Shown here: in pieces, positions 325 to 19,682 of the stretch
How positions within the stretch are numbered: position 1 is the first letter of the stretch
Layout of the letters: every line of letters begins with the position of its first letter
UHGV virus genome: UHGV-0061455
Origin: a virus
Reading direction: 5' to 3' (one strand)
DNA length: 19,997 nt
The notes under the pieces: model-generated
Database searches by the model: none
What the model saw: only the letters and a program-made list of their open reading frames with translations
What the model was told of the DNA's origin: nothing
Translations under genes and position numbers: made by a program

Positions 325-3030
325 ATGGCCTATAGTTGGGAAGAGCATCTGTATCCCGCAGGGACTACTAGCATCTCAGTGAATATTCAGTACTTAGACC
401 GCTCTTATATCTACCTGTACGTAGATAACGAGGAAGTGCTTGACTATACTTGGGAGAGCGACGTGCGCATCCGGTTGGATGCTGCACTTACTAAAGAGAG
501 TAAGGTACTAATTGTACGCCGTACAGCGGCGCATTACCTGTACATTAACTTCAAGTCAGGTGCTCCGTTTATCTCTGAGAACTTAGATACTCAGAATACT
601 CAGTTCCTGCACCTAGCTCAGGAGATGACGGAAGGTCGTAGTATCGAGGGATTCTACGGCGATATTAATATGAACGGCTTCCGCATCATTAATCTGGCAG
701 CAGGAGAAGAGGCTACAGACGCGATTAATAAGGCGCAGTTAGATGAAGTAGATTCTAAGGTAAAGGCGTTGGAGGGTACCTTTATAGGTCATACTAATAG
801 TTACCCATGGTACACCGTTATTGTGTCTCCTACGAAGATCATTGCACCTCCTTACTCGTTTACTAAAGCAGCTGTATATTTGAACGGAGTATGTCAAACT
901 CCGGGATATTCTTACAGTGTAGATAATAATACCATTACCTTAGCAGAGGAAGTTCCCGCGGGAACGCACGTGTTTGTGCGATTAGGGGAGGATATACTGG
1001 ATGCTACCTACGTCACAGTAGTAACTTACGCAGACCTTATTCAGCGTCTTACAGACCCAGACGGTGCAGTTAACAGTCCTGAACTTCAGGTGGCTAGGTG
1101 GAGAGACAACGGTGATGTTCGAGGCTGGGGAGCTAAGGTAGATGGAGGTGCAAACGACTCAGGCGCATTTAATGCGGTAGCCGGTGCACCTGCTCACGTA
1201 CCTAACGGTACATCCCGATGCAGTCCTGGTGTGTTTTCTATAGCTGGGTTGACCGGAGAAGTGAACTCAAAGCTTAAGCAGGTTGCTCCTGCAGGTAACT
1301 TCCTATCCTTCCGTCAGCCTGACGGGGGACGTATCGCTAACCTAGATATTGAATCTAATAAGGGAGGGGTAGTATCTGCACAAGGTCACCAGATTGACGT
1401 TCAGGATGGACGTAACGTTACTCTGGAAAACCTTAACTTTAAAGAAGCAGAGGGAACTGGATTTTCCATCATCACTTACAGTAATACTCTTCCATACCAA
1501 GAAGGGTTCATTGTAAAGGGTATTCGTGGGAAATACAATACATCTGTAGCAAACGCCGATGCAGGCTGTGTACTGTTAGACCGTAATCGTAAGTCGCTGG
1601 TTGACGGCGTTATTGCAACAGGTTACCCTCAGTTCGGAGCAGTAGAGCTTAAGAGTGATGCTAAGTATAACATCACGTCTAATATTATTGGAGATAACTG
1701 TGAGAGTACAGTTTACTTAGGTACTGAAACAGAGGCTACACCTAACGCCAATATCATCAGTAACATTATCTCAAGCAAGCCTGGGTTCAGCGCTGTAGAG
1801 GTAGGCAGAGGCCGCCACAATTTAATGTCTAATGTGCTGGCTGACTATACAGAGTCTACAGCAACATCAGCACACGGTGTGACTATGACGGGCGAGTCTA
1901 ATGTTGCTGATAACATACTCATGATGGGAAGTACCGGGGTTAACTCCATAGGCGGCGCGCAGGCGGCATATAATGCAAGATTCCGTGGCACTGCAAGGAA
2001 CAACTATGCCTCTATCTTCCCACACTACACCGCAACGGGGGTCGTGACTTTCGAGGGAGGTACTGCACGTAACTTTGTAGAGATTAAACATCCCGGCTCC
2101 CGCTCTAGTATTTTCGCGCAGGCTTCCACAATTACAGATAAGGCGACAATTACCGGGGACGTTAACAGTAACGTAGTGCATGCACCGGCACTTGGTCAGT
2201 ACTTCGGCACCATGTCAGGAACCTTCGATTGGCGTATCAAGGATGTTACTATCCCATCTGGAGTATTTGTTACAGCCGACCGATTCAGGTTCATATGCGA
2301 TGGCGCAGTTTCCATGGCTGTTGGCGGGGGGACTACATCTCAGTTGAAACTGTTCAACTCAGACGGTACGGCACGGACACTATCACTGAATCAAAACCAG
2401 TCTATCAGGTTGGATATAGGTTCAGGGAACTACCTGCAGTTCAGCTCTAATGTCCTGACACCTAGTCAGACTAACGCTTACTCATTAGGTAATGCGTCAA
2501 AGGCTTGGGCAGGAGGCACAACGCAGACCGCGTTTACAGTTCTATCAGATGAACGTGCTAAGAGCAAACCCTTGACGCTTGCTCGAGGCTCGTTAGCCGA
2601 TATTATAACTTCAGACGGGGAGCAGGTATACTCGTCTGACGCGGTTCTAGATGCTTGGGCTGAAGTAGATTTGGTACAGTACCAGCTGCTAGATCGTATT
2701 GAAGCGAAAGGTGAAGAAGGTGCCCGCTGGCATTTTGGTGTTCTCGCCCAACGTGCAGTTGAGGCATTCTCCCGTCATGGTCTGGACGCCCATCGGTTTG
2801 CTTTCCTGTGCTATGATGAGTGGGACGACCAGTACGGTAAAGTTCAGGTTGGTGATGGAGAGTATATAGAGGTACTGGAAACACCAGCAGGTAACCGTTA
2901 CGGCATCCGCTACGAAGAGGCTTTGATTCTTGAAGCAGCACTTCAACGTCGTAACTATAGCAGGTTGGTTGATAGTTTCAATAAGTTGTCATCTCGTATT
3001 GATGCTATTGAGGCGGTCTGCGCACCTTAA
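325..3030 (+). CDS. Tail fibre/tailspike: T7 gp17-like N-terminal anchor, central beta-helix (pectate-lyase-like, putative depolymerase), C-terminal intramolecular chaperone (peptidase S74-like) domain
   Basis: 901-aa ORF; GGAG RBS 7 nt upstream of ATG 325. N-terminal ~150 aa resemble the T7 gp17 adaptor domain. Central region shows repetitive Asn/Gly/Ser-rich pattern typical of right-handed beta-helices. Motif SDERAK near aa 741 resembles the auto-cleavage site of endosialidase-type chaperone domains. Confidence 0.85.
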   Translation: MAYSWEEHLYPAGTTSISVNIQYLDRSYIYLYVDNEEVLDYTWESDVRIRLDAALTKESKVLIVRRTAAHYLYINFKSGAPFISENLDTQNTQFLHLAQEMTEGRSIEGFYGDINMNGFRIINLAAGEEATDAINKAQLDEVDSKVKALEGTFIGHTNSYPWYTVIVSPTKIIAPPYSFTKAAVYLNGVCQTPGYSYSVDNNTITLAEEVPAGTHVFVRLGEDILDATYVTVVTYADLIQRLTDPDGAVNSPELQVARWRDNGDVRGWGAKVDGGANDSGAFNAVAGAPAHVPNGTSRCSPGVFSIAGLTGEVNSKLKQVAPAGNFLSFRQPDGGRIANLDIESNKGGVVSAQGHQIDVQDGRNVTLENLNFKEAEGTGFSIITYSNTLPYQEGFIVKGIRGKYNTSVANADAGCVLLDRNRKSLVDGVIATGYPQFGAVELKSDAKYNITSNIIGDNCESTVYLGTETEATPNANIISNIISSKPGFSAVEVGRGRHNLMSNVLADYTESTATSAHGVTMTGESNVADNILMMGSTGVNSIGGAQAAYNARFRGTARNNYASIFPHYTATGVVTFEGGTARNFVEIKHPGSRSSIFAQASTITDKATITGDVNSNVVHAPALGQYFGTMSGTFDWRIKDVTIPSGVFVTADRFRFICDGAVSMAVGGGTTSQLKLFNSDGTARTLSLNQNQSIRLDIGSGNYLQFSSNVLTPSQTNAYSLGNASKAWAGGTTQTAFTVLSDERAKSKPLTLARGSLADIITSDGEQVYSSDAVLDAWAEVDLVQYQLLDRIEAKGEEGARWHFGVLAQRAVEAFSRHGLDAHRFAFLCYDEWDDQYGKVQVGDGEYIEVLETPAGNRYGIRYEEALILEAALQRRNYSRLVDSFNKLSSRIDAIEAVCAP

Positions 3031-3044
3031 CTTAAGGAAACAAT

Positions 3045-3344
3045 ATGGCTAAGGCGGCTACAAAGAGTCGCCTCGCTGAACTGCATAAGATGTTCACCGA
3101 GGTGCTTATTTCAGAATTGCAGCAGGCTAAGGATGAAGAAATCCCGATGCCTGCTGCAGATAAATCAGTTATCGCTAACTTCCTTAAGAGCAATAACATC
3201 ACAGCGGATGCAGACTCTACGGAGATGCAGGACCTGCGTGATGAGTTCCAAGATGAGTTAGCAGAGAAACGTAAAGCACGGGCGTCTGAATTACTAGCGA
3301 AAGCTGGTGCAGACCCTGAAGACCCTCTAGCAGGTATTCTATAA
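3045..3344 (+). CDS. Putative terminase small subunit (DNA maturase A)
   Basis: 99-aa highly charged, helical-looking protein directly upstream of the large terminase. Assignment by size and position only. Confidence 0.4.
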   Translation: MAKAATKSRLAELHKMFTEVLISELQQAKDEEIPMPAADKSVIANFLKSNNITADADSTEMQDLRDEFQDELAEKRKARASELLAKAGADPEDPLAGIL

Positions 3345-3672: not shown

Positions 3673-5496
3673 GTGATTAGTCAAACTACACTGAACAGAT
3701 TGAAGCTAATATCTCAACGTACTACAGTAATGAATGACAGTCCCCGTACTATCCCCAAGGACCAGCGCGAGGAAGTGGCGCTTATGATGGCGGTAACTCT
3801 GAAGGATTTTAGAGAGTTCGCATACTTAGGTATGAAGTTCCTAGGTTTTGACCTTACAGAGATGCAGCGCGATATAGCAGACTTCATGCAGCATGGTCCG
3901 CGTAAGCGCATGGTAGCAGCACAGCGTGGTGAAGCTAAGTCTACGCTGGCTGCCCTGTACGCTGTTTGGCGGTTAATCCAGGACCAGAGTACCCGTATTC
4001 TTATTGTATCTGGTGGTGAGAAGCAGGCGTCTGAAGTAGCTACGCTTGTTATCCGTATGATTGAGACGTGGCCTTTACTATGCTACCTCAAGGCTGATAG
4101 TACCCGAGGTGATCGCACATCTTATGAAGGCTACGACGTTCACTGCGACCTTAAGCCTCTGGATAAGTCCGCTAGCATTGCGTGCGTAGGTATTACTGCG
4201 CAGCTGCAGGGTAAGCGTGCTGACCTGCTGATTCCAGATGATATCGAAACAACCAAGAACGGCCTAACGCAGACTATGCGTGAGCAGTTGCTGAACATCT
4301 CTAAAGACTTCGCCGCTATCTGTACTCATGGTGATACCTTGTACTTGGGAACACCTCAGACTAAGGATAGTATCTACAAAACCCTGCCGGGCCGTGGCTT
4401 TGAAGTTCGAGTCTGGCCTGGACGTATACCGAACGCAGAGATGCGTGAACGTTACGGAGAAACCCTAGCCCCGTATATTCAAACCCTCATCGACGCAGGG
4501 TACAAAGAGACTGGCTTCGGGTTAGACGGTACGTTAGGTGAGTGCACAGATAAAGGACGTTACAACGAAGAAGCGCTGATTGAGAAGGAACTGGACTTTG
4601 GTCCTGAAGGTTTCCAACTCCAGTACATGCTTGATACAACTATGTCCGATGCGCTGCGTACCAAGATTAAACTCTCCGATATGCTCGTGTACTCTGGTTC
4701 TCATGACTCTGCCCCAGACCGCTTAAGCTATATTGCTGATAAGCGCTACATGTTCGCAGAGGAGCATGAAGGTATCCGTGGCCAGTTACTGTACCAGCCG
4801 GCTAGCTATGGCGAGCACATGCTCCCGTACCAGCATAAGCTGATGGTAATCGACCCGGCAGGGTGCGGCGGGGATGAAGTGTCTTACGCCTGTGGCGGCG
4901 CAGCTAACTCATACATACACCTGTTCTCTGTAGGCGGCTTCCAAGGTGGCATTAGTACCGAGAACGTGGATAAGTTTATCGACATTGCTATAGAGATGGG
5001 AATCTCTGATATCTTCATCGAAAGCAACATGGGTCACGGTACAGTAGAAATGCTGTTCCAGAACCGCTTGAAGGAGCGTAGGCTTCCGGGTATCGGTGTC
5101 AGAGGCGGTTATAACACGTCTCAGAAGGAGAAGCGTATCATTGATACTATCTCCCCTGTTACGCGTCGTCATCGCTTTGTGGTGCATTCTAGGGCGCTTA
5201 CTGACGATATCCAAAGCTGTATGCAGTACAGTCGTGATAAGCGCTGGTTGTACAGTGCGTTCCAGCAGTTACAAGGAATTACCTATGACCGAGGCAGCCT
5301 TGCTAAGGATGACCGTGCAGACGCAGTGGCTATGCTTACTGCTGAACTGAACGGCTTCTTGGTAGAGGATGAGAAGGTTGTAGCGGAGAAGGAAATCAAG
5401 AAGAAGGCAATGGAGTTCCTAGCGAATCCGCTAGGGTGGACTGATGTAGATACCAGACCTAAGCGGCGAGGCACTGCATCGCGTATGAGTTACTAG
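3673..5496 (+). CDS. Terminase large subunit (T7 gp19-like)
   Basis: 607 aa; GTG start 5 nt after AAGGAAG RBS. Segments ILIVSGGEKQASE, ACVGITAQLQGKRADLLIPDDIE, LYLGTPQT and LMVIDPAGCGGDEVSYACGG align by eye with T7 gp19 ATPase and nuclease motifs. Confidence 0.9.
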   Translation: MISQTTLNRLKLISQRTTVMNDSPRTIPKDQREEVALMMAVTLKDFREFAYLGMKFLGFDLTEMQRDIADFMQHGPRKRMVAAQRGEAKSTLAALYAVWRLIQDQSTRILIVSGGEKQASEVATLVIRMIETWPLLCYLKADSTRGDRTSYEGYDVHCDLKPLDKSASIACVGITAQLQGKRADLLIPDDIETTKNGLTQTMREQLLNISKDFAAICTHGDTLYLGTPQTKDSIYKTLPGRGFEVRVWPGRIPNAEMRERYGETLAPYIQTLIDAGYKETGFGLDGTLGECTDKGRYNEEALIEKELDFGPEGFQLQYMLDTTMSDALRTKIKLSDMLVYSGSHDSAPDRLSYIADKRYMFAEEHEGIRGQLLYQPASYGEHMLPYQHKLMVIDPAGCGGDEVSYACGGAANSYIHLFSVGGFQGGISTENVDKFIDIAIEMGISDIFIESNMGHGTVEMLFQNRLKERRLPGIGVRGGYNTSQKEKRIIDTISPVTRRHRFVVHSRALTDDIQSCMQYSRDKRWLYSAFQQLQGITYDRGSLAKDDRADAVAMLTAELNGFLVEDEKVVAEKEIKKKAMEFLANPLGWTDVDTRPKRRGTASRMSY

Positions 5497-7267: not shown

Positions 7268-9013
7268 ATGACCCTAGTAAAGTTAGTTGAAGTAGAACTG
7301 GATACCTTGCACGTAGACCACTCTGGGTTAGTGCTTAATACGTACTTGAATGACAACGGGTACAACCTGCGTCAATGGGTAGACTCTGATGCAGCAGATG
7401 CACGAGAAGGAATGCAAGCTGCTATTGACTATATTGAGTCAGTTGGTGGAGGTACGTTAATTATCCCAGATGGTACTTGGATTCTTAACAGTATCAGTAC
7501 TGGCCCAGTGTCCGGGCACAGTGGACTCATTCAGCTTAAGAACAATGTAAGCATTAAGCTGGACGGTGTAGTTAAAGTAGGCCCTGCCTTAGCTAATAGT
7601 TCCTTCCAGGTCTTCGTCGGCTTCACTGATGCCAATCCAGCTAACTCTGGTAACTTGGACAACTGTCACATCTTTGGTGAAGGTAGCATTGACTTTGGAG
7701 GTTATGATTTTGCTGACTCAGGTCACTTGCGCAATGGTATCGCATTTGGTAAGGGGTATAACTGTTCAGTAGATGGCATTACGTTCATTAACGGTGACAT
7801 TACATGGGCTATAACACTTGGGTGGAACGGATATGGTTCAGACTCTTATGTCCGCAACTGCCGCTTCATTAACCTCATCCAAAGTAACGTGAACCGCGAC
7901 CATAGTACAGTGTACGTTAACTGCCCGTTCAGTGGGGTCACTGACTGCACCTTCCGCGCAAGCTCTGCGCGTGCCAAGGTAATAGCATGCACTGTGGAGT
8001 TACATCAACACGACACCTACTACCGCAATAGCAGCATCTCAGGATATACGCGTGGGTGCTATGTAGCGCTGCATGGTTCTGAGTCTGTTGGTGCAGGTAC
8101 GTACCTGTATAATGCCGAAGTCTCTGGGGTCATCGGAGATATCTCTGGTCAGGCCGTTATATTAGCTGCAGGCCCAGACGCTATAGCTACTACGCACATT
8201 CATGGCCTTACGGTATCTAACTGCCGGTTCACTGCTGGGAACTACCCGGGCATGTGCAGCTTCATTGACTTCTTCCAAGATGGTAACTCTGACTCAAGTC
8301 AGTACCTTATCAATCACGTTACGGTTAAGGGGTGCAGCTTCATCGTAGACCGCAGCCGTTCTCTTAGTGCAGCCATTACCCTGAACGGGAGTATTCAAGG
8401 TATCACCTTCCAGGATAACTTCTTCGATGTTAAGCAGGCTATGGTATCGGAACTCCCTAGCGGACGCACTGTGCAGTTAGAGCGCTTTAACTGGGATGCT
8501 AGCAATATCATCGGCGGCGATAACACTGGTACTCGTACTGGCCTGAACCTGTTTGAGACTCGGCGAGTATCCAGTATGTTGCGCTGTAACATTCAACTGC
8601 ATATGCGTCAGCCTAGTGTGGACCTGTACAGCTTTATGTACTTCCGTCCCGGTATCTCCTTCAGTGAGTGTACTATAGAGGTTCTACCTTACAACTGGGG
8701 TACTAGTTCAGGTAATGCACTGTTCTTTGAAGAGGGTGGCGTTCCTCCCCTGAACGTACATTGCAGCTTCCCTAAACAAGTATCTGTAACTCTCGCATCT
8801 GGTTCGAACGTGCAACGCGCTACGGTATCAGGTAACTACGCTTGGGTTGCCCGTGCAGACGCTCTGGATAGACGTGGTATTTCAGGTCAGTTCGATGCCC
8901 CTGCTAGTTACGCAGGTAGCAGCAACGGTCAGTTAACAGGCTTAGGTTGGCAGCTTGATGGGCTTCAACATACGTATGACCACAACGTGCTTCTTACAGG
9001 GCGCAGTAACTAA
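7268..9013 (+). CDS. Second tailspike, beta-helix polysaccharide depolymerase (pectate-lyase-3-like), no T7-type anchor domain
   Basis: 581 aa; AAGGA RBS. N-terminus DAREGMQAAIDYIESVGGGTLIIPDGTWIL resembles the start of pectate-lyase-fold phage depolymerases. Internal repeats (NCHIFGEGSIDF, NCRFINLIQSN, VTDCTFRAS, SNCRFTAG, KGCSFIVD) are typical beta-helix rungs. Confidence 0.75.
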   Translation: MTLVKLVEVELDTLHVDHSGLVLNTYLNDNGYNLRQWVDSDAADAREGMQAAIDYIESVGGGTLIIPDGTWILNSISTGPVSGHSGLIQLKNNVSIKLDGVVKVGPALANSSFQVFVGFTDANPANSGNLDNCHIFGEGSIDFGGYDFADSGHLRNGIAFGKGYNCSVDGITFINGDITWAITLGWNGYGSDSYVRNCRFINLIQSNVNRDHSTVYVNCPFSGVTDCTFRASSARAKVIACTVELHQHDTYYRNSSISGYTRGCYVALHGSESVGAGTYLYNAEVSGVIGDISGQAVILAAGPDAIATTHIHGLTVSNCRFTAGNYPGMCSFIDFFQDGNSDSSQYLINHVTVKGCSFIVDRSRSLSAAITLNGSIQGITFQDNFFDVKQAMVSELPSGRTVQLERFNWDASNIIGGDNTGTRTGLNLFETRRVSSMLRCNIQLHMRQPSVDLYSFMYFRPGISFSECTIEVLPYNWGTSSGNALFFEEGGVPPLNVHCSFPKQVSVTLASGSNVQRATVSGNYAWVARADALDRRGISGQFDAPASYAGSSNGQLTGLGWQLDGLQHTYDHNVLLTGRSN

Positions 9014-9466
9014 GTAATAAACCTGTGGGTGCCTGAGGGTGCCCTGGGATTTCCTGGGATTGCACGTGTAAACGTACACCTAGAAAATATTATACTCACG
9101 CGAGGCCCTCCCTCACCCGACCAAGGCGTCAATCCCCCCATGGGGTAGGCCTCTGGGAATTCACAGGGTGGGGTAGTGGGAGAGGGTGCTAATCCCTCTG
9201 CGTATACTGTGTGCTGCGCTAGACGCTCTGTATCGCTCTGTATCGCTCTGTATCGCTCTGTGAGTCTATAGCAGTACCTAAGGGACACTTCGTGTCTCTA
9301 CGCTGTACAAGGCAAGCCTCTGTGCTTCTCTGTGCTCTCTCTTATGAGGGCAGGAGGGGGCGCATGCTTGCCTATTTTTATGCACGCTGTGCAGTACTGT
9401 ATGCCGCTGCTATACCTCTGTGTATGCGCAGTAGCTTACCTCTTTTGCCTCTAGGCTATGCAATGC
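9014..9466. other. Non-coding genome-terminus or terminal-repeat-like region
   Basis: About 450 nt with no credible ORF between the last late gene and the first early promoter. Contains tandem short repeats, CTCTGT-type motifs, a CCCCATGGGG palindrome and C-rich/G-rich inverted arms. T7-like genomes have short repeat arrays next to their terminal repeats. Confidence 0.5.
9224..9261. repeat. Tandem repeat, about 3.8 copies of 10-bp unit CGCTCTGTAT
   Basis: Read directly: cgctctgtat cgctctgtat cgctctgtat cgctctgt. Related CTCTGTG motifs recur at about 9318-9345 and 9415. Confidence 0.9.
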
Positions 9467-9495
9467 TTGACGCAGGGTTAGCGCTGTGATATGCT
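9467..9495 (+). promoter_or_regulatory. Candidate sigma70-type early promoter P0 (TTGACG-N17-TATGCT)
   Basis: -35 TTGACG at 9467-9472, 17-nt spacer, -10 TATGCT at 9490-9495; about 100 nt upstream of the first early gene. Weaker -10 than the other promoters. Confidence 0.35.
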
Positions 9496-9601
9496 GATAG
9501 TAGTTGTAAGGTTCTTTAACAATCCGGGGAATCAACGACGCAGTGCAGCGAGTCACTACTCAACACTATATAGTAGGGGATATTGGAATACACTATGAAG
9601 G

Positions 9602-10345
9602 ATGCATACAATGCAAGAACGTAATCTTAAGAAGAGTAGTAAGCGTATAGACGGTAAGGTACGCAGTGGTTGGATAGATGTAGATACAGGGGAGTTCTTC
9701 AACACTAAAGCAGAGGCGAATGTAATGCGTAAGATGCGTAGTGATAAGAAGCCTGTAGCTAGGCGTAATGTAATAGCAGTAGCTGATGCAACGCTTAGAA
9801 TGAAGGATGTAGTGCTAGCTTGGGCATTCAGTAATGATTTCCAGCTTAAACATTACAACTTAATGAATGAGTACATGGAAGGGCGCAGTAAGGGCTATGC
9901 AGGGCTTAAGACTATGCAGCGTGCTGGTACTGTACTGGAAGCAGTTAACGTAGCTACAGCGTGGTACAAGCAGTATGACGCTAGGAAGGATAAACGCTAT
10001 CTGGATGATGCACTCTACACCAATCCTACATGGTGTGAGGATAGGGATTGGGTAGACTCTGAGCCATTGGATGAGCTTAGCTTAGAGATAAATGCATTAC
10101 TGGACTCTAGACATGCTGAGTTCTTAGCGAATGAGCCTAAACCTGAGCTTACTGCTAAGGAGTATGAGCGTAGTATACTCAGTAGGGATAAAGCTACTTA
10201 TATACACAGTAAGGGTGCTGTAACAGTGTATGAGGAGAAGCAGGAGAGTAAGAAAGGTTTAACTGAGCATCAACCTAGATGGTCACAGGATGAGTTGTTT
10301 GATTGGACGCAGCGTAACACTACACAACAATACATTAGGGGATAA
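9602..10345 (+). CDS. Early protein, function unknown
   Basis: 247-aa ORF, visibly more A+T-rich than the late genes. ATG 9611 has better RBS spacing (AAGGA 9 nt upstream) than ATG 9602, so the true start may be 9611. Confidence 0.6.
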   Translation: MHTMQERNLKKSSKRIDGKVRSGWIDVDTGEFFNTKAEANVMRKMRSDKKPVARRNVIAVADATLRMKDVVLAWAFSNDFQLKHYNLMNEYMEGRSKGYAGLKTMQRAGTVLEAVNVATAWYKQYDARKDKRYLDDALYTNPTWCEDRDWVDSEPLDELSLEINALLDSRHAEFLANEPKPELTAKEYERSILSRDKATYIHSKGAVTVYEEKQESKKGLTEHQPRWSQDELFDWTQRNTTQQYIRG

Positions 10346-10532: not shown

Positions 10533-10576
10533 TGTGACAGTAACTTACCTCTTTTGAAATTAATTTAAAATAGTTG

Positions 10577-10605
10577 TTGACTTCCCTGATTTAAGCAGTT
10601 ATAGT
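10577..10605 (+). promoter_or_regulatory. Strong sigma70-type early promoter P1 (TTGACT-N17-TATAGT with A+T-rich upstream element)
   Basis: -35 TTGACT 10577-10582, exact 17-nt spacer, -10 TATAGT 10600-10605, preceded by aaattaatttaaaatagttg. Same architecture as P2 and P3a. Confidence 0.7.
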
Positions 10606-10629
10606 TCAAGCATAGTAAGGAGATGCAAA

Positions 10630-10770
10630 GGCAGCTGAAGGGGTAGCGGATAACCAAGACTACCCAGCCTAAAAGGACTTGAAGGACGTCGGTAACTGCA
10701 CCGCCTCTGCATCGAGGGAAGCAATGAGCTGCTAAGAGACAAAAGCAGCGCTAAGATGAATGTTCTTAGT
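10630..10770 (+). ncRNA. Conserved structured leader element, copy R1 of 3
   Basis: Begins about 18 nt after the predicted P1 start site. Conserved blocks GGCAGCTGAAGG, ATAACCAAGAC, AGCCTA-AAGGA, CTAAGAGACAA and GCTAAG are shared with R2 and R3. Hairpin A: GGGTAG (10641-10646) pairs with CTACCC (10660-10665) around a 13-nt loop. Hairpin C: CTAAG (10751-10755) pairs with CTTAG (10765-10769). The shared reading frame is broken by a stop in this copy. Confidence 0.5.
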
Positions 10771-11547: not shown

Positions 11548-11550
11548 GTG

Positions 11551-11579
11551 TTGACGACGTACAGGGAAGTGCGTATAGT
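11551..11579 (+). promoter_or_regulatory. Strong sigma70-type early promoter P2 (TTGACG-N17-TATAGT)
   Basis: -35 TTGACG 11551-11556, 17-nt spacer, -10 TATAGT 11574-11579, preceded by aaaataaattaaaataagtg. Confidence 0.7.
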
Positions 11580-11636
11580 TCATTACATCGGGAGGCGAGA
11601 GGCACTAAGCACCTCCTCCCGGAAAGGAGAAGTTAA

Positions 11637-11775
11637 GGCAGCTGAAGGTAACGATGATAGCCAAGACGTTACAGCCTACAAGGAAGTGAACGAAATCCGA
11701 ACCCTACGGTCCCTGCAATCGGGAGAACTGGATGAGAAGCTAAGAGACAAGAGCTTCGCTAAGTGACTACTTAGT
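11637..11775 (+). ncRNA. Conserved structured leader element, copy R2 of 3
   Basis: Same conserved blocks as R1 and R3. Hairpin A: GTAACG (11648-11653) pairs with CGTTAC (11667-11672) around a 13-nt loop atgatagccaaga. Hairpin C: CTAAG (11759-11763) pairs with CTTAG (11770-11774). The 43 nt between element and ATG, including the AAGAGG RBS, are homologous to those after R1. Confidence 0.5.
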
Positions 11776-19375: not shown

Positions 19376-19404
19376 TTGACATGGCAAGGACGCCTAGGTA
19401 TAGT
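19376..19404 (+). promoter_or_regulatory. Strong sigma70-type promoter P3a (TTGACA-N17-TATAGT)
   Basis: -35 TTGACA 19376-19381, 17-nt spacer, -10 TATAGT 19399-19404, preceded by taattaaattagttg; immediately after the DNA polymerase stop. Confidence 0.7.
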
Positions 19405-19491
19405 AAGCACATCAACGAGGCACGGAGCCTACCAGAAACGGTCAGTAGACGCAGCGTCATACGAAGAGCTGATAAGTTGATAAGAAACAGA

Positions 19492-19520
19492 TTGACAGGC
19501 AGTAACGAAGTAGATAATAT
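19492..19520 (+). promoter_or_regulatory. Candidate tandem promoter P3b (TTGACA-N17-TAATAT)
   Basis: -35 TTGACA 19492-19497, 17-nt spacer, -10 TAATAT 19515-19520. Predicted start lies about 15 nt upstream of R3, matching the P1-to-R1 spacing. Confidence 0.4.
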
Positions 19521-19541
19521 ACACATCAAGGAAGCAGTACT

Positions 19542-19682
19542 GGCAACTGAAGGTAGCGCTGATAACCAAGACGCTATAGCCAACAAGGAAGTGAACGCCC
19601 TCGGCTACGTCGCCGTCCCTGTATCGGGAGAAGACATGAGAGTCTAGGAGAAATAAGACTCGCTAACTGAAGTAGAGTTAGT
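19542..19682 (+). ncRNA. Conserved structured leader element, copy R3 of 3
   Basis: Same conserved blocks (GGCAACTGAAGG, ATAACCAAGAC, AGCCAACAAGGAAGTGAACG). Hairpin A: GTAGCG (19553-19558) pairs with CGCTAT (19572-19577, one G-U) around a 13-nt loop. Hairpin C: CTAAC (19663-19667) pairs with GTTAG (19677-19681), a compensatory change relative to R1 and R2. Confidence 0.5.

What the first reader, a model, noticed from the sequence alone, without database searches (positions are those of the whole stretch)
9014..9600. Genome terminus captured in the window: repeat arrays and a G-rich/C-rich inverted structure
The last late gene and the first early promoter are separated by about 450-590 nt of non-coding DNA containing a 10-bp tandem repeat (9224-9261), a duplicated CCTGGGATT (9043-9061), recurring CTCTGTG motifs, a GTGTA-aacg-TACAC hairpin (9066-9079), and a C-rich arm (about 9106-9118) facing a G-rich arm (about 9158-9180) around the palindrome CCCCATGGGG (9127-9136). 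This is where a T7-like linear genome's direct terminal repeat and packaging signals would sit, so the contig appears to run through the physical ends as a circularised assembly or concatemer junction.
Basis: partly seen in the sequence, partly recalled or inferred. Interest (0 to 1): 0.5.

Follow-up and report, generated by a model that had tools for sequence, protein, structure and literature searches.

The report
Phage genome-end repeat, collapsed junction
This non-coding stretch is the place where the two physical ends of a T7-like (KP34-type) phage chromosome meet in the assembly, holding one copy of its roughly 254-bp terminal repeat with the flanking cutting and packaging signals; this is ordinary for the phage family, though not yet annotated for this E. 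coli-phage lineage.

Summary
The window is a metagenome contig of a Slopekvirinae (KP34-like, T7 supergroup) phage. The gap between the last late gene (tailspike, stop at 9013) and the first early gene (9611) holds one copy of the direct terminal repeat (DTR).

The left boundary is at 9111 (CCTCACCC...). It aligns base for base with the experimentally mapped blunt left end of Klebsiella phage fHe-Kpn01 and with the annotated DTR starts of KP34, KpV48, AttikonH1 and phiKDA1. The right boundary falls at about 9363-9365, just before the conserved CTTGCCTATTTT motif. That gives a DTR of about 254 bp.

All the listed repeats exist and are far more concentrated here than chance allows. Two details fail:
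- The palindrome is at 9136-9145, not 9127-9136.
- The C-arm/G-arm fold is no better than shuffled sequence.

The junction core is shared with T7, T3, SP6 and phiKMV: an A/T box, a CTC-type terminus and a C-run-AT(A)-G-run motif at about +25. A strong terminator-like hairpin (9310-9373) spans the predicted right end. The tandem arrays vary in copy number between isolates. The DTR interior is hypervariable.

Physical ends could not be tested because no reads were available. Verdict: a new member of a known kind, of modest interest.

The parts
3045..3344 (+). Terminase small subunit gene (context: the packaging enzyme that would act on the junction)
   Evidence: phrog_891 terminase small subunit, E = 2.6e-28
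3673..5496 (+). Terminase large subunit gene, T7 type
   Evidence: phrog_38, E = 2.9e-112; PF22530 Terminase-T7_RNaseH-like on the identical product
7268..9013 (+). Tailspike gene, the last late gene before the right genome end
   Evidence: phrog_20900 tail spike, E = 2e-286; PF18781
9022..9061 (+). Short tandem decamers just left of the junction core (CCTGNGGGTG x2, CCTGGGATTT x2). Comparable in position to the CTGGGG/CTGGGA repeats of Drulisvirus and to the short repeats left of the T7 right DTR.
   Evidence: TRF. One copy of the first decamer is missing in isolate L052. Similar repeats are seen in Klebsiella phages. The segment matches the G-quadruplex consensus.
9061..9110 (+). Conserved pre-DTR block that abuts the left-end cut. 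It contains GCACGTGTAAACGTACAC (hairpin 9066-9079), an A/T box (AGAAAATATTATACT) and CACGCGAGGCCCTC.
   Evidence: 78-86% identical to four clade relatives, while the neighbouring 9014-9060 is 19-43% identical. Conserved across 33 Drulisvirus loci. An A/T box sits at the same offset in T7, T3, SP6 and phiKMV. Hairpin: 86% of cells paired, one compensatory pair.
9111..9364 (.). Predicted direct terminal repeat, single collapsed copy. Left boundary 9111 +/-1; right boundary 9363-9365.
   Evidence: The left boundary is homologous to the first base of the DTR of fHe-Kpn01 (mapped experimentally), KP34, KpV48, AttikonH1 and phiKDA1. The right boundary follows from GCGCTC|TGCCTTGCTTATTTTG (Drulisvirus) and GGGCGCAG|GCTTACCTCTTTTG (phiKDA1). 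There is no second copy in the window.
9134..9145 (.). CCCCCCATGGGG, a C-run-AT-G-run palindrome at DTR positions 24-35
   Evidence: Same motif at the same offset in KP34 and fHe-Kpn01 (CCCCCATAGGGGG), T7 (nt 25-37), T3, SP6 and phiKMV. It is invariant or nearly so in 33 Drulisvirus loci.
9166..9186 (+). G-rich tract GGGTGGGGTAGTGGGAGAGGG, the counterpart of the G13-14 run of Drulisvirus DTRs
   Evidence: It is one of only two G-quadruplex-consensus matches in the window, both strands counted.
9224..9261 (+). 10-bp tandem array CGCTCTGTAT x3.8 inside the variable DTR core
   Evidence: TRF score 76, 100% match. Isolate L052 has 2.8 copies; the array is absent from L051, P64441, PAS7 and L025.
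9310..9373 (+). Long terminator-like hairpin that spans the predicted right DTR end, followed by TATTTTT
   Evidence: RNA MFE -39.7 kcal/mol, z = -4.41, 0 of 200 shuffles as stable. The consensus hairpin holds in 6 clade sequences, with 4 pairs kept through double changes. Flagged by the terminator scan.
9367..9378 (+). CTTGCCTATTTT, the conserved motif immediately right of the DTR end
   Evidence: It starts 2-4 nt after the annotated DTR end in KP34, KpV48, AttikonH1, fHe-Kpn01 and phiKDA1. It is present once at 146-300 nt from the DTR start in nearly all loci. phiKMV has CCTTGCCTCT at the same place.
9435..9446 (+). Second copy of the motif (CTTACCTCTTTT), 32 nt upstream of the first early promoter. 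A third copy at 10544-10555 lies 33 nt upstream of the second promoter.
9467..9495 (+). First early sigma70-type promoter: TTGACG, 17 nt, TATGCT, with a TG extension
   Evidence: Promoter scan. Conserved in S.Kent, P64441 and L025.
9611..10345 (+). First early gene (244 aa, no family match)
   Evidence: Gene as called in four public assemblies; no PHROG hit

Best explanation
Window 9014-9610 is the joint between the right and left ends of a linear, T7-type phage chromosome (Slopekvirinae, close to the proposed genus Cepavirus). It contains one copy of the direct terminal repeat, about 9111 to 9364 (~254 bp).

The layout, from left to right:
- Short decamer repeats and a conserved 50-nt block that abuts the cut making the left genome end.
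- The DTR itself. It opens with CCTCACCC, carries a C-run-AT-G-run palindrome at about +25 and then a G-rich tract. Its core is fast-evolving and repeat-rich. It closes with a conserved pyrimidine-rich segment.
- At its right edge, a strong hairpin plus the CTTGCCTATTTT motif, followed by the early promoters.

Mechanism, inferred by analogy with T7/T3. Replication gives head-to-tail concatemers joined through a single DTR. The TerS/TerL terminase (3045-3344, 3673-5496) cuts at the right DTR edge to start packaging leftwards, and at the left DTR edge of the next joint to finish. The DTR is duplicated by repair synthesis, so each virion carries it at both ends.

The hairpin and U-run at the right edge most likely stop or pause rightward late transcription there. 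The class II pause site ATCTGTT does this at the T7 joint.

What is shown: the sequence homology, the boundary positions in relatives, the single copy, the gene context, and the conservation and fold statistics. What is inferred: the physical ends of this particular phage, the cutting order, and the roles of the hairpin, the motif and the repeats.
For: - Taxonomy and gene order. The nearest records are Slopekvirinae phages. The order is TerS, TerL, lysis genes, tailspike, gap, early genes. TerL carries the T7-type nuclease domain PF22530.
- Left boundary. The window reads ...ACTCACGCGAGGCCCTC|CCTCACCCGACC.... This matches ...ACTCACGCGAGCCCCTC|CCTCACCCT... in KpV48, AttikonH1 and KP34, and the corresponding junctions of KPPK108.1 (annotated one base later), fHe-Kpn01 and phiKDA1. 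In all of these the bar marks the annotated DTR start. The fHe-Kpn01 ends were mapped experimentally and are blunt (PMC7291057).
- Artefact at a relative's end. An IMG/VR contig of a relative ends in an inverted copy of the DTR start that stops exactly at CCTCACCC. This is an artefact typical of a physical end.
- Right boundary. In 5 of 6 annotated relatives the DTR ends 1-3 nt before CTTRCYTNTTTT. The window has that motif once, at 9367.
- Single copy in the window. Three independent assemblies read through the joint.
- The junction core is shared with T7, T3, SP6 and phiKMV.
- Conservation is block-wise: high at both boundaries, low in the core.
- Hairpin 9310-9373: z = -4.4, with compensatory changes.
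- A class II pause site lies at the T7 joint (bioRxiv 10.1101/2021.01.11.426313; PMC3276506).
Against: - No reads were available, so neither the two-fold coverage block nor read-start pile-ups could be checked for this phage.
- No member of the E. coli-phage clade (PAS7, P64441, S.Kent) has mapped ends. The PAS7 paper does not mention termini.
- The right boundary rests on a short motif and could be off by a few bases or more. In KPPK108.1 the annotated DTR ends about 90 nt before the motif.
- The motif CTTRCCTNTTTT also sits about 32 nt upstream of both early promoters. In KpV48 it overlaps an annotated -35 box. It may therefore be promoter-related rather than a packaging or pause signal.
- The strong hairpin is specific to this clade. 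Drulisvirus has only a weak one with almost no covariation.
- The T7 signal ATCTGTT is absent here.
- Tandem-array copy number varies, and the arrays are absent in close relatives. They are unlikely to be essential signals.
Confidence: 0.85

Rival explanations
1. The terminus is in this gap, but the DTR boundaries differ from those predicted. One example is a shorter repeat that ends near 9219, or one that ends before the hairpin.
For: Two public contigs carrying this phage (JGI 3300045988 and ENA ERZ919597) are identical to the window up to 9219. They then continue with an unrelated 31-nt tail and stop. KPPK108.1 has an annotated DTR that ends about 90 nt before the boundary motif. Predicted DTR lengths vary from 146 to 253 bp within the clade.
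Against: The ENA contig comes from run ERR414380. The JGI contig carries the identical unrelated 31-nt tail, so it probably stems from the same reads, and the two are unlikely to be independent. The tail matches nothing else, which fits a chimeric read next to the tandem array. Nothing is conserved at 9219, whereas the sequence around 9363-9378 is conserved in three genera with annotated ends.
Confidence: 0.12
2. The repeats, the hairpin and the CTTGCCTATTTT motif serve early gene expression or replication, not packaging. On this reading they are a terminator for late transcripts, upstream elements of early promoters, or a left-end origin, and the DTR merely happens to lie among them.
For: The motif recurs about 32 nt upstream of both sigma70-like early promoters. 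In KpV48 it overlaps an annotated promoter. The hairpin plus U-run has the form of an intrinsic terminator. In T7 the left end also carries promoters and a secondary origin (T7 annotation; origin from general knowledge).
Against: This is not exclusive with the main explanation. The first motif copy has no convincing -10 box downstream (read from the sequence). It keeps a fixed offset of 1-3 nt from the DTR end in five annotated relatives, although DTR length varies by 75 bp among those five and by about 150 bp across all loci.
Confidence: 0.2
3. There is no physical terminus here. The gap is an ordinary intergenic regulatory region of a circularly permuted (headful) or otherwise-ended genome.
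For: The contig reads straight through with no break. Nothing in the sequence alone proves a cut. No reads were examined.
Against: Both DTR boundaries of relatives with mapped or annotated ends fall here. The terminase is of the T7 type. The gene order is late genes, gap, early genes.
Confidence: 0.03

Closest known systems
Direct terminal repeats of Slopekvirinae phages: Drulisvirus (KP34, 216 bp; fHe-Kpn01, 222 bp, ends mapped experimentally; KpV48, 192 bp; AttikonH1, 247 bp) and Koutsourovirus phiKDA1 (267 bp)
   Same: Same position, after the tailspike gene and before the early genes. Same pre-DTR block (..TTATACTCACGCGAG.CCCTC). Same first bases (CCTCACCC). Same C-run-ATA-G-run at about +25 and G-rich tract at about +55-75. 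Same boundary motif CTTRCYTNTTTT just after the right end.
   Different: The DTR core is unrelated in sequence and carries its own 10-bp array. The palindrome is CCCCATGGGG rather than CCCCCATAGGGGG. A mixed G-rich tract replaces the G13-14 homopolymer. In this clade the boundary motif is drawn into a much stronger hairpin.
Concatemer junction of T7/T3 (Studiervirinae) and SP6 (Molineuxvirinae)
   Same: One DTR lies between the right-end and left-end unique DNA. An A/T-rich box sits 18-30 nt before the left cut. The terminus starts (T/C)CTC. A C-run-ATA-G-run lies at nt 25-40. A CTCTCTGTG-type pyrimidine run lies near the right DTR end. Short strand-biased repeats flank the DTR (CCTAAAG in T7, CTCTGTG/CTGGGA here). 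A conserved signal follows directly after the right end.
   Different: The signal after the right end is (A)TCTGTT in T7, T3 and SP6. That is the class II RNA polymerase pause site, and it is absent here. Here the signal is CTTGCCTATTTT preceded by a hairpin. Apart from the short motifs there is no extended sequence similarity.
phiKMV (Krylovirinae), 414-bp DTR
   Same: The terminus starts TCCC. CCCCCGTAGGCCC lies at +26. CCTTGCCTCT follows directly after the right DTR end and is repeated three times, resembling GCTTGCCTATTTT and its repeats here.
   Different: The DTR is longer and GC-rich. A separate terminator is annotated before the DTR. There is no U-run after the motif.

Membership tests
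T7-type short direct terminal repeat / concatemer junction (Autographiviridae, Slopekvirinae) | Lies between the last late (right-end) gene and the early (left-end) region of a co-linear T7-like gene map | tested here: met
   The order is TerS, TerL, spanin, endolysin, tailspike, then a 597-nt gap, then early genes and the helicase
T7-type short direct terminal repeat / concatemer junction (Autographiviridae, Slopekvirinae) | Sequence homologous to the DTR of relatives whose ends are mapped, including the left boundary | tested here: met
   Window 9061-9150 aligns with the right-end junction of fHe-Kpn01 (ends mapped, PMC7291057), KP34, KpV48, AttikonH1 and phiKDA1. Their DTR starts fall at window 9111, within one base.
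T7-type short direct terminal repeat / concatemer junction (Autographiviridae, Slopekvirinae) | Right boundary homologous to that of relatives | tested here: met
   GGGGGCGC(AT)|GCTTGCCTATTTT aligns with GGGCGCTC|CGTCTTACCTATTTT (fHe-Kpn01), GCGCTC|TGCCTTGCTTATTTT (KP34) and GGGCGCAG|GCTTACCTCTTTT (phiKDA1). The position is good to about +/-2 nt. One annotated relative, KPPK108.1, disagrees.
T7-type short direct terminal repeat / concatemer junction (Autographiviridae, Slopekvirinae) | Genome encodes a T7-type terminase | tested here: met
   PF22530 Terminase-T7_RNaseH-like; phrog_38 and phrog_891
T7-type short direct terminal repeat / concatemer junction (Autographiviridae, Slopekvirinae) | The repeat is present at both ends of virion DNA: two-fold read coverage, read-start pile-ups, and run-off sequencing that stops at the ends | not testable with these tools
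   No reads or virion DNA were available. The window contains the sequence only once, as expected for a collapsed DTR or a concatemer joint.
T7 class II pause/termination signal at the concatemer junction | The sequence ATCTGTT on the non-template strand just right of the DTR | tested here: not met
   ATCTGTT is absent from 9014-9601. It is present at that position in T7 and T3, and as TCTGTT in SP6.
Intrinsic (hairpin plus U-run) transcription terminator | A stable GC-rich stem followed directly by a U-rich tract, conserved with compensatory changes | tested here: inconclusive
   Hairpin 9310-9373 followed by UAUUUUU: z = -4.41, kept in 6 clade sequences, with 4 pairs changed on both sides. 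There are only 6 sequences, the covariation term is small, and termination was not measured.
Conserved stem-loop left of the DTR (candidate counterpart of the inverted repeat left of the T7 junction) | Base pairing maintained across relatives | tested here: inconclusive
   For 9066-9079, 86% of cells are paired over 16 distinct sequences, against 49% or less for slid controls. Only one pair shows a double change (G-C to C-G), and 6 of 16 sequences break it.

The most novel reading that the evidence does not exclude
In Slopekvirinae, and perhaps in phiKMV-like phages, the conserved CTTGCCTATTTT-type motif that starts 2-4 nt after the right DTR end may be the functional counterpart of the T7 class II ATCTGTT pause site. 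In this E. coli-phage clade the motif is built into a strong hairpin. On this reading it stops the phage RNA polymerase at the concatemer joint and so marks where terminase makes the initiating cut. The A/T box, the CTC terminus and the C-run-ATA-G-run at +25 would then form a cutting signal common to all Autographiviridae.
Probability: 0.25. Interest if true: 0.45.

Novelty: new member of a known kind. Interest (0 to 1): 0.25.

Why it matters
- It fixes where the linear chromosome of this uncultured E. coli-type Slopekvirinae phage begins and ends (about 9111 and about 9364 in the window). Relatives deposited as 'circular' (PAS7, P64441) can therefore be re-oriented and their DTRs annotated.
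- It shows that the assembly is a collapsed or concatemer form, and that the true genome is about 254 bp longer than a circularised contig.
- The comparison gives a compact list of junction elements shared from T7 to KP34-like phages. It also gives a candidate replacement for the T7 pause signal. Both are testable and useful for engineering or rebooting such phages.
- None of this is surprising for the family.

Tried and rejected
- **Metagenome scan.** A 36-nt degenerate junction pattern scanned against metagenome contigs gave nothing.
- **Promoter-pattern scan.** A scan of viral contigs with the early-promoter pattern found only L025. The clade sample therefore stayed at 6 distinct junctions, too few for firm covariation.
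- **RNA gene searches.** Rfam at E <= 1 over 8800-9800 and a tRNA scan of the window gave nothing.
- **ORFs in the gap.** The two mechanical ORFs, 9010-9288 (-) and 9292-9489 (+), have no PHROG match. Relatives differ from them by indels that are not multiples of three. They were rejected as genes.
- **C-arm/G-arm cruciform.** The fold is no better than shuffles. Rejected as a structure.
- **The 31-nt foreign tail.** It sits on two contigs that break at 9219 and was searched in the window and in IMG/VR. It occurs only in those contigs. It was treated as a chimeric end, not as evidence for a terminus at 9219.
- **Strong right-end hairpin as a subfamily-wide feature.** Drulisvirus shows only a weak hairpin with one compensatory pair. 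Rejected as general.
- **Literature.** The SP6 genome paper could not be retrieved. A full-text search for CCCCATAGGG returned 22 papers; none of the 10 listed deals with phage termini. Whether the +25 motif has been described before is unknown to me.
- **First gene start.** A look-up of the 247-aa reading of the first gene failed. The 244-aa start at 9611 is the one on record.

Full report
**What the window is.** The window is ENA metagenome contig ERZ1310330 NODE_1251 (19,997 bp, coverage about 4x). Its nearest database relatives are Slopekvirinae podophages of the T7 supergroup:
- 'Salmonella phage S.Kent 1-2-1';
- E. coli phage P64441;
- E. coli phage PAS7, the proposed genus Cepavirus;
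- more distantly, Koutsourovirus (phiKDA1) and Drulisvirus (KP34-like Klebsiella phages).

All genes read on the + strand. The order is tail fibre (325-3030), small terminase (3045-3344), large terminase (3673-5496, T7-type nuclease domain PF22530), spanin, endolysin and tailspike (7268-9013). A gap without credible genes follows, and then come early genes from 9611 and a DnaB-like helicase.

**Checking the observation.**
- The 10-bp array CGCTCTGTAT x3.8 lies at 9224-9261.
- CCTGGGATT lies at 9043 and 9053.
- The hairpin GTGTA-aacg-TACAC lies at 9066-9079.
- CTCTGTG lies at 9256, 9318, 9328 and 9416.

Two further small arrays exist, at 9022-9043 and 9318-9342.

The concentration is not chance. 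Four of the eight TRF arrays of the window fall in this 3% of it (P = 5e-5). Seven of the nine CTCTGT copies fall here too (P = 6e-10), all on one strand.

Two details do not hold. The palindrome CCCCATGGGG is at 9136-9145, nine bases right of the stated position. The 'C-rich arm facing a G-rich arm' is real as composition, but as a fold it is no more stable than shuffled sequence (z = -0.23).

**Locating the terminal repeat, left boundary.** A sensitive search with 8900-9700 hit the extreme right ends of many Klebsiella Drulisvirus records, under features annotated as terminal repeats. Reading those records shows a block that is nearly identical across the subfamily...GCACGTCTATACCTGGACCTGAAATTTATTAGACTCACGCGAGCCCCTC|CCTCACCCT...CCCCCATAGGGGG.... 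The bar marks the annotated first base of the DTR.

The window reads ...GCACGTGTAAACGTACACCTAGAAAATATTATACTCACGCGAGGCCCTC|CCTCACCCGACC...CCCCCCATGGGG.... That puts the homologous boundary at 9111.

The best anchor is fHe-Kpn01. Its blunt ends were mapped by PhageTerm, restriction digestion, Sanger sequencing on phage DNA and a ligation assay (PMC7291057). Its genome starts CCTCACCCTGAACG. phiKDA1 (Koutsourovirus, 267-bp DTR) gives the same boundary.

There is also an independent hint. One IMG/VR contig of a relative ends with an inverted copy of the DTR start that stops exactly at CCTCACCC, which is the kind of artefact produced at a physical end.

**Right boundary.** The annotated right DTR boundaries read as follows:

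| Phage | Sequence at the right DTR end |
|---|---|
| KP34, KpV48, AttikonH1 | ...GGGGTGCGCTC\|TGCCTTGCTTATTTTG |
| fHe-Kpn01 | ...GGGCGCTC\|CGTCTTACCTATTTTG |
| phiKDA1 | ...GGGCGCAG\|GCTTACCTCTTTTG |

The motif CTTRCYTNTTTT occurs once, 146-300 nt after the DTR start, in almost every locus that extends far enough. The window has GGGGGCGCATGCTTGCCTATTTTT with the motif at 9367-9378. The right end therefore falls at 9363-9365 and the DTR is about 254 bp.

One annotated relative, KPPK108.1, ends its DTR about 90 nt before the motif, so this boundary is less secure than the left one.

The window contains no second copy of this sequence. Three independent assemblies read through it.

**Anatomy and conservation.** Six distinct clade junctions were available: the window, L051, S.Kent, P64441, PAS7 and IMG/VR L025. 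L052 is a copy-number variant of the window. Four of these relatives were aligned with the window; L051 and L052 were aligned with it separately. Across them, conservation is block-wise:

| Window segment | Identity to clade relatives |
|---|---|
| 9014-9060 | 19-43% |
| 9061-9110 (pre-DTR block) | 78-86% |
| 9111-9150 (first 40 nt of the DTR) | 75-98% |
| 9151-9310 (DTR core) | 46-85%, with large indels |
| 9311-9380 (DTR end plus motif) | 62-84% |

The predicted DTR length ranges from 146 to 253 bp within the clade.

The tandem arrays are unstable. Isolate L052 lacks one decamer of each of two arrays, and the 10-bp array is absent in the other relatives.

One case stands out. Contig L051 (43.4 kb) is 99-100% identical to the window on both sides, but only 58% identical, with 51 gap positions, across 9128-9310. 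The DTR core is thus a hot spot of replacement.

**A junction core shared across the family.** The ends of T7, T3, SP6 and phiKMV were fetched. They show the same layout:
- An A/T-rich box lies 18-30 nt left of the left cut. It reads TTTAAAATAT in T7, CAAAATTTTGATAT in SP6 and phiKMV, and AGAAAATATTAT here.
- The terminus starts (T/C)C(T/C)C.
- A C-run-(A/G)T(A)-G-run lies at nt 24-40. In T7 it is CCCCCATAGGGGG at 25-37, identical to KP34.

At the right end, T7, T3 and SP6 have (A)TCTGTT immediately after the DTR. [quoted passage not shown] RNA polymerase pausing there has been linked to the start of maturation and packaging (PMC3276506).

Slopekvirinae lack ATCTGTT and have CTTGCCTATTTT instead. 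phiKMV has CCTTGCCTCT at the same place.

**The right-end hairpin.** In the window the motif forms the 3' arm of a long hairpin (9310-9373) followed by UAUUUUU. The RNA MFE is -39.7 kcal/mol, z = -4.41, and none of 200 shuffles is as stable. The terminator scan also flags it.

The hairpin is kept in all six clade sequences, with four pairs changed on both sides and many G-U pairs. That points to a + strand RNA structure rather than a DNA cruciform. In Drulisvirus only a weak hairpin with almost no covariation is found, so the strong version is specific to this clade.

**A caveat on the motif.** Copies of the motif also lie about 32 nt upstream of both early sigma70-like promoters, at 9435 and 10544. 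In KpV48 a copy overlaps an annotated -35 box. A promoter-related role therefore cannot be excluded.

**The small hairpin at 9066-9079.** It is mostly maintained: 86% of cells are paired over 16 distinct sequences, against 49% or less for slid controls. Only one pair shows a double change, and 6 of 16 sequences break that pair. The result is inconclusive.

**Mechanism.** By analogy with T7/T3 (general knowledge of that system), concatemers joined through one DTR are cut by TerS/TerL. The cut at the right DTR edge (about 9364) would start packaging leftwards. This is probably helped by transcription stopping at the hairpin/motif. The cut at the left edge (9111) of the neighbouring joint would finish it, and the DTR would be duplicated by repair synthesis. 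The conserved blocks next to each cut are the likely recognition sequences. The variable, repeat-rich core and the decamer arrays are probably dispensable spacers that expand and contract by slippage. These steps are inferred, not shown.

**Verdict.** This is a new, previously unannotated member of a well-known kind of element. The physical ends remain to be measured from reads or virion DNA.

Noticed in passing
window 10616-10755, 11623-11763, 19528-19667 (+ strand): Three copies of a ~140-nt repeat, 69-84% identical, in the early/middle region. Each has two internal palindromes. The repeats partly overlap short ORFs (11548-11766, 19381-19647). They could be a promoter, processing or terminator cassette, or a repeated peptide-coding segment.
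   Followed up: no
window 9128-9310 versus L051 (Logan ERR10101420, 43.4-kb contig): Two genomes that are 99-100% identical on both flanks differ sharply in the DTR interior: 58% identity with 51 gap positions. The repeat core is a hot spot of replacement or rapid change.
   Followed up: partly
L056 (JGI 3300045988) and L057 (ENA ERZ919597); break at window 9219/9220: Both contigs match the window exactly up to 9219, 4 nt before the 10-bp array. Both then end in the same unrelated 31-nt tail, GATTATTATCGGACGATAAGCCGGAAACAGT, which is found nowhere else. L057 comes from run ERR414380, and the identical tail suggests that L056 derives from the same reads. The most likely cause is a chimeric read.
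   Followed up: partly
window 9027-9058 and 9166-9186 (+ strand): The only two matches to the G-quadruplex consensus (four G3+ runs with loops of 1-7 nt) in the whole 20-kb window, both strands counted, lie here. One is just left of the DTR and one is inside it. Drulisvirus has a G13-14 homopolymer at the second position, and several IMG/VR contigs break there.
   Followed up: no
window 9435-9446 and 10544-10555: The sequence CAGTARCTTACCTCTTTTG sits 32-33 nt upstream of the -35 box of both sigma70-like early promoters (9467-9495 and 10577-10605). It is a variant of the motif at the DTR right end.
   Followed up: partly
L014 (IMGVR_UViG_3300045988_019900), last ~50 nt: This contig of a Klebsiella-phage relative ends in an inverted copy of its own DTR start, stopping exactly at the first DTR base. 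This is an assembly artefact that marks a physical end.
   Followed up: no
window 9506-9533: The block CTTTAACAATC.GG.GA.TCA, downstream of the first early promoter, is conserved in all five aligned clade members, while the surrounding sequence is not. Its function is unknown.
   Followed up: no
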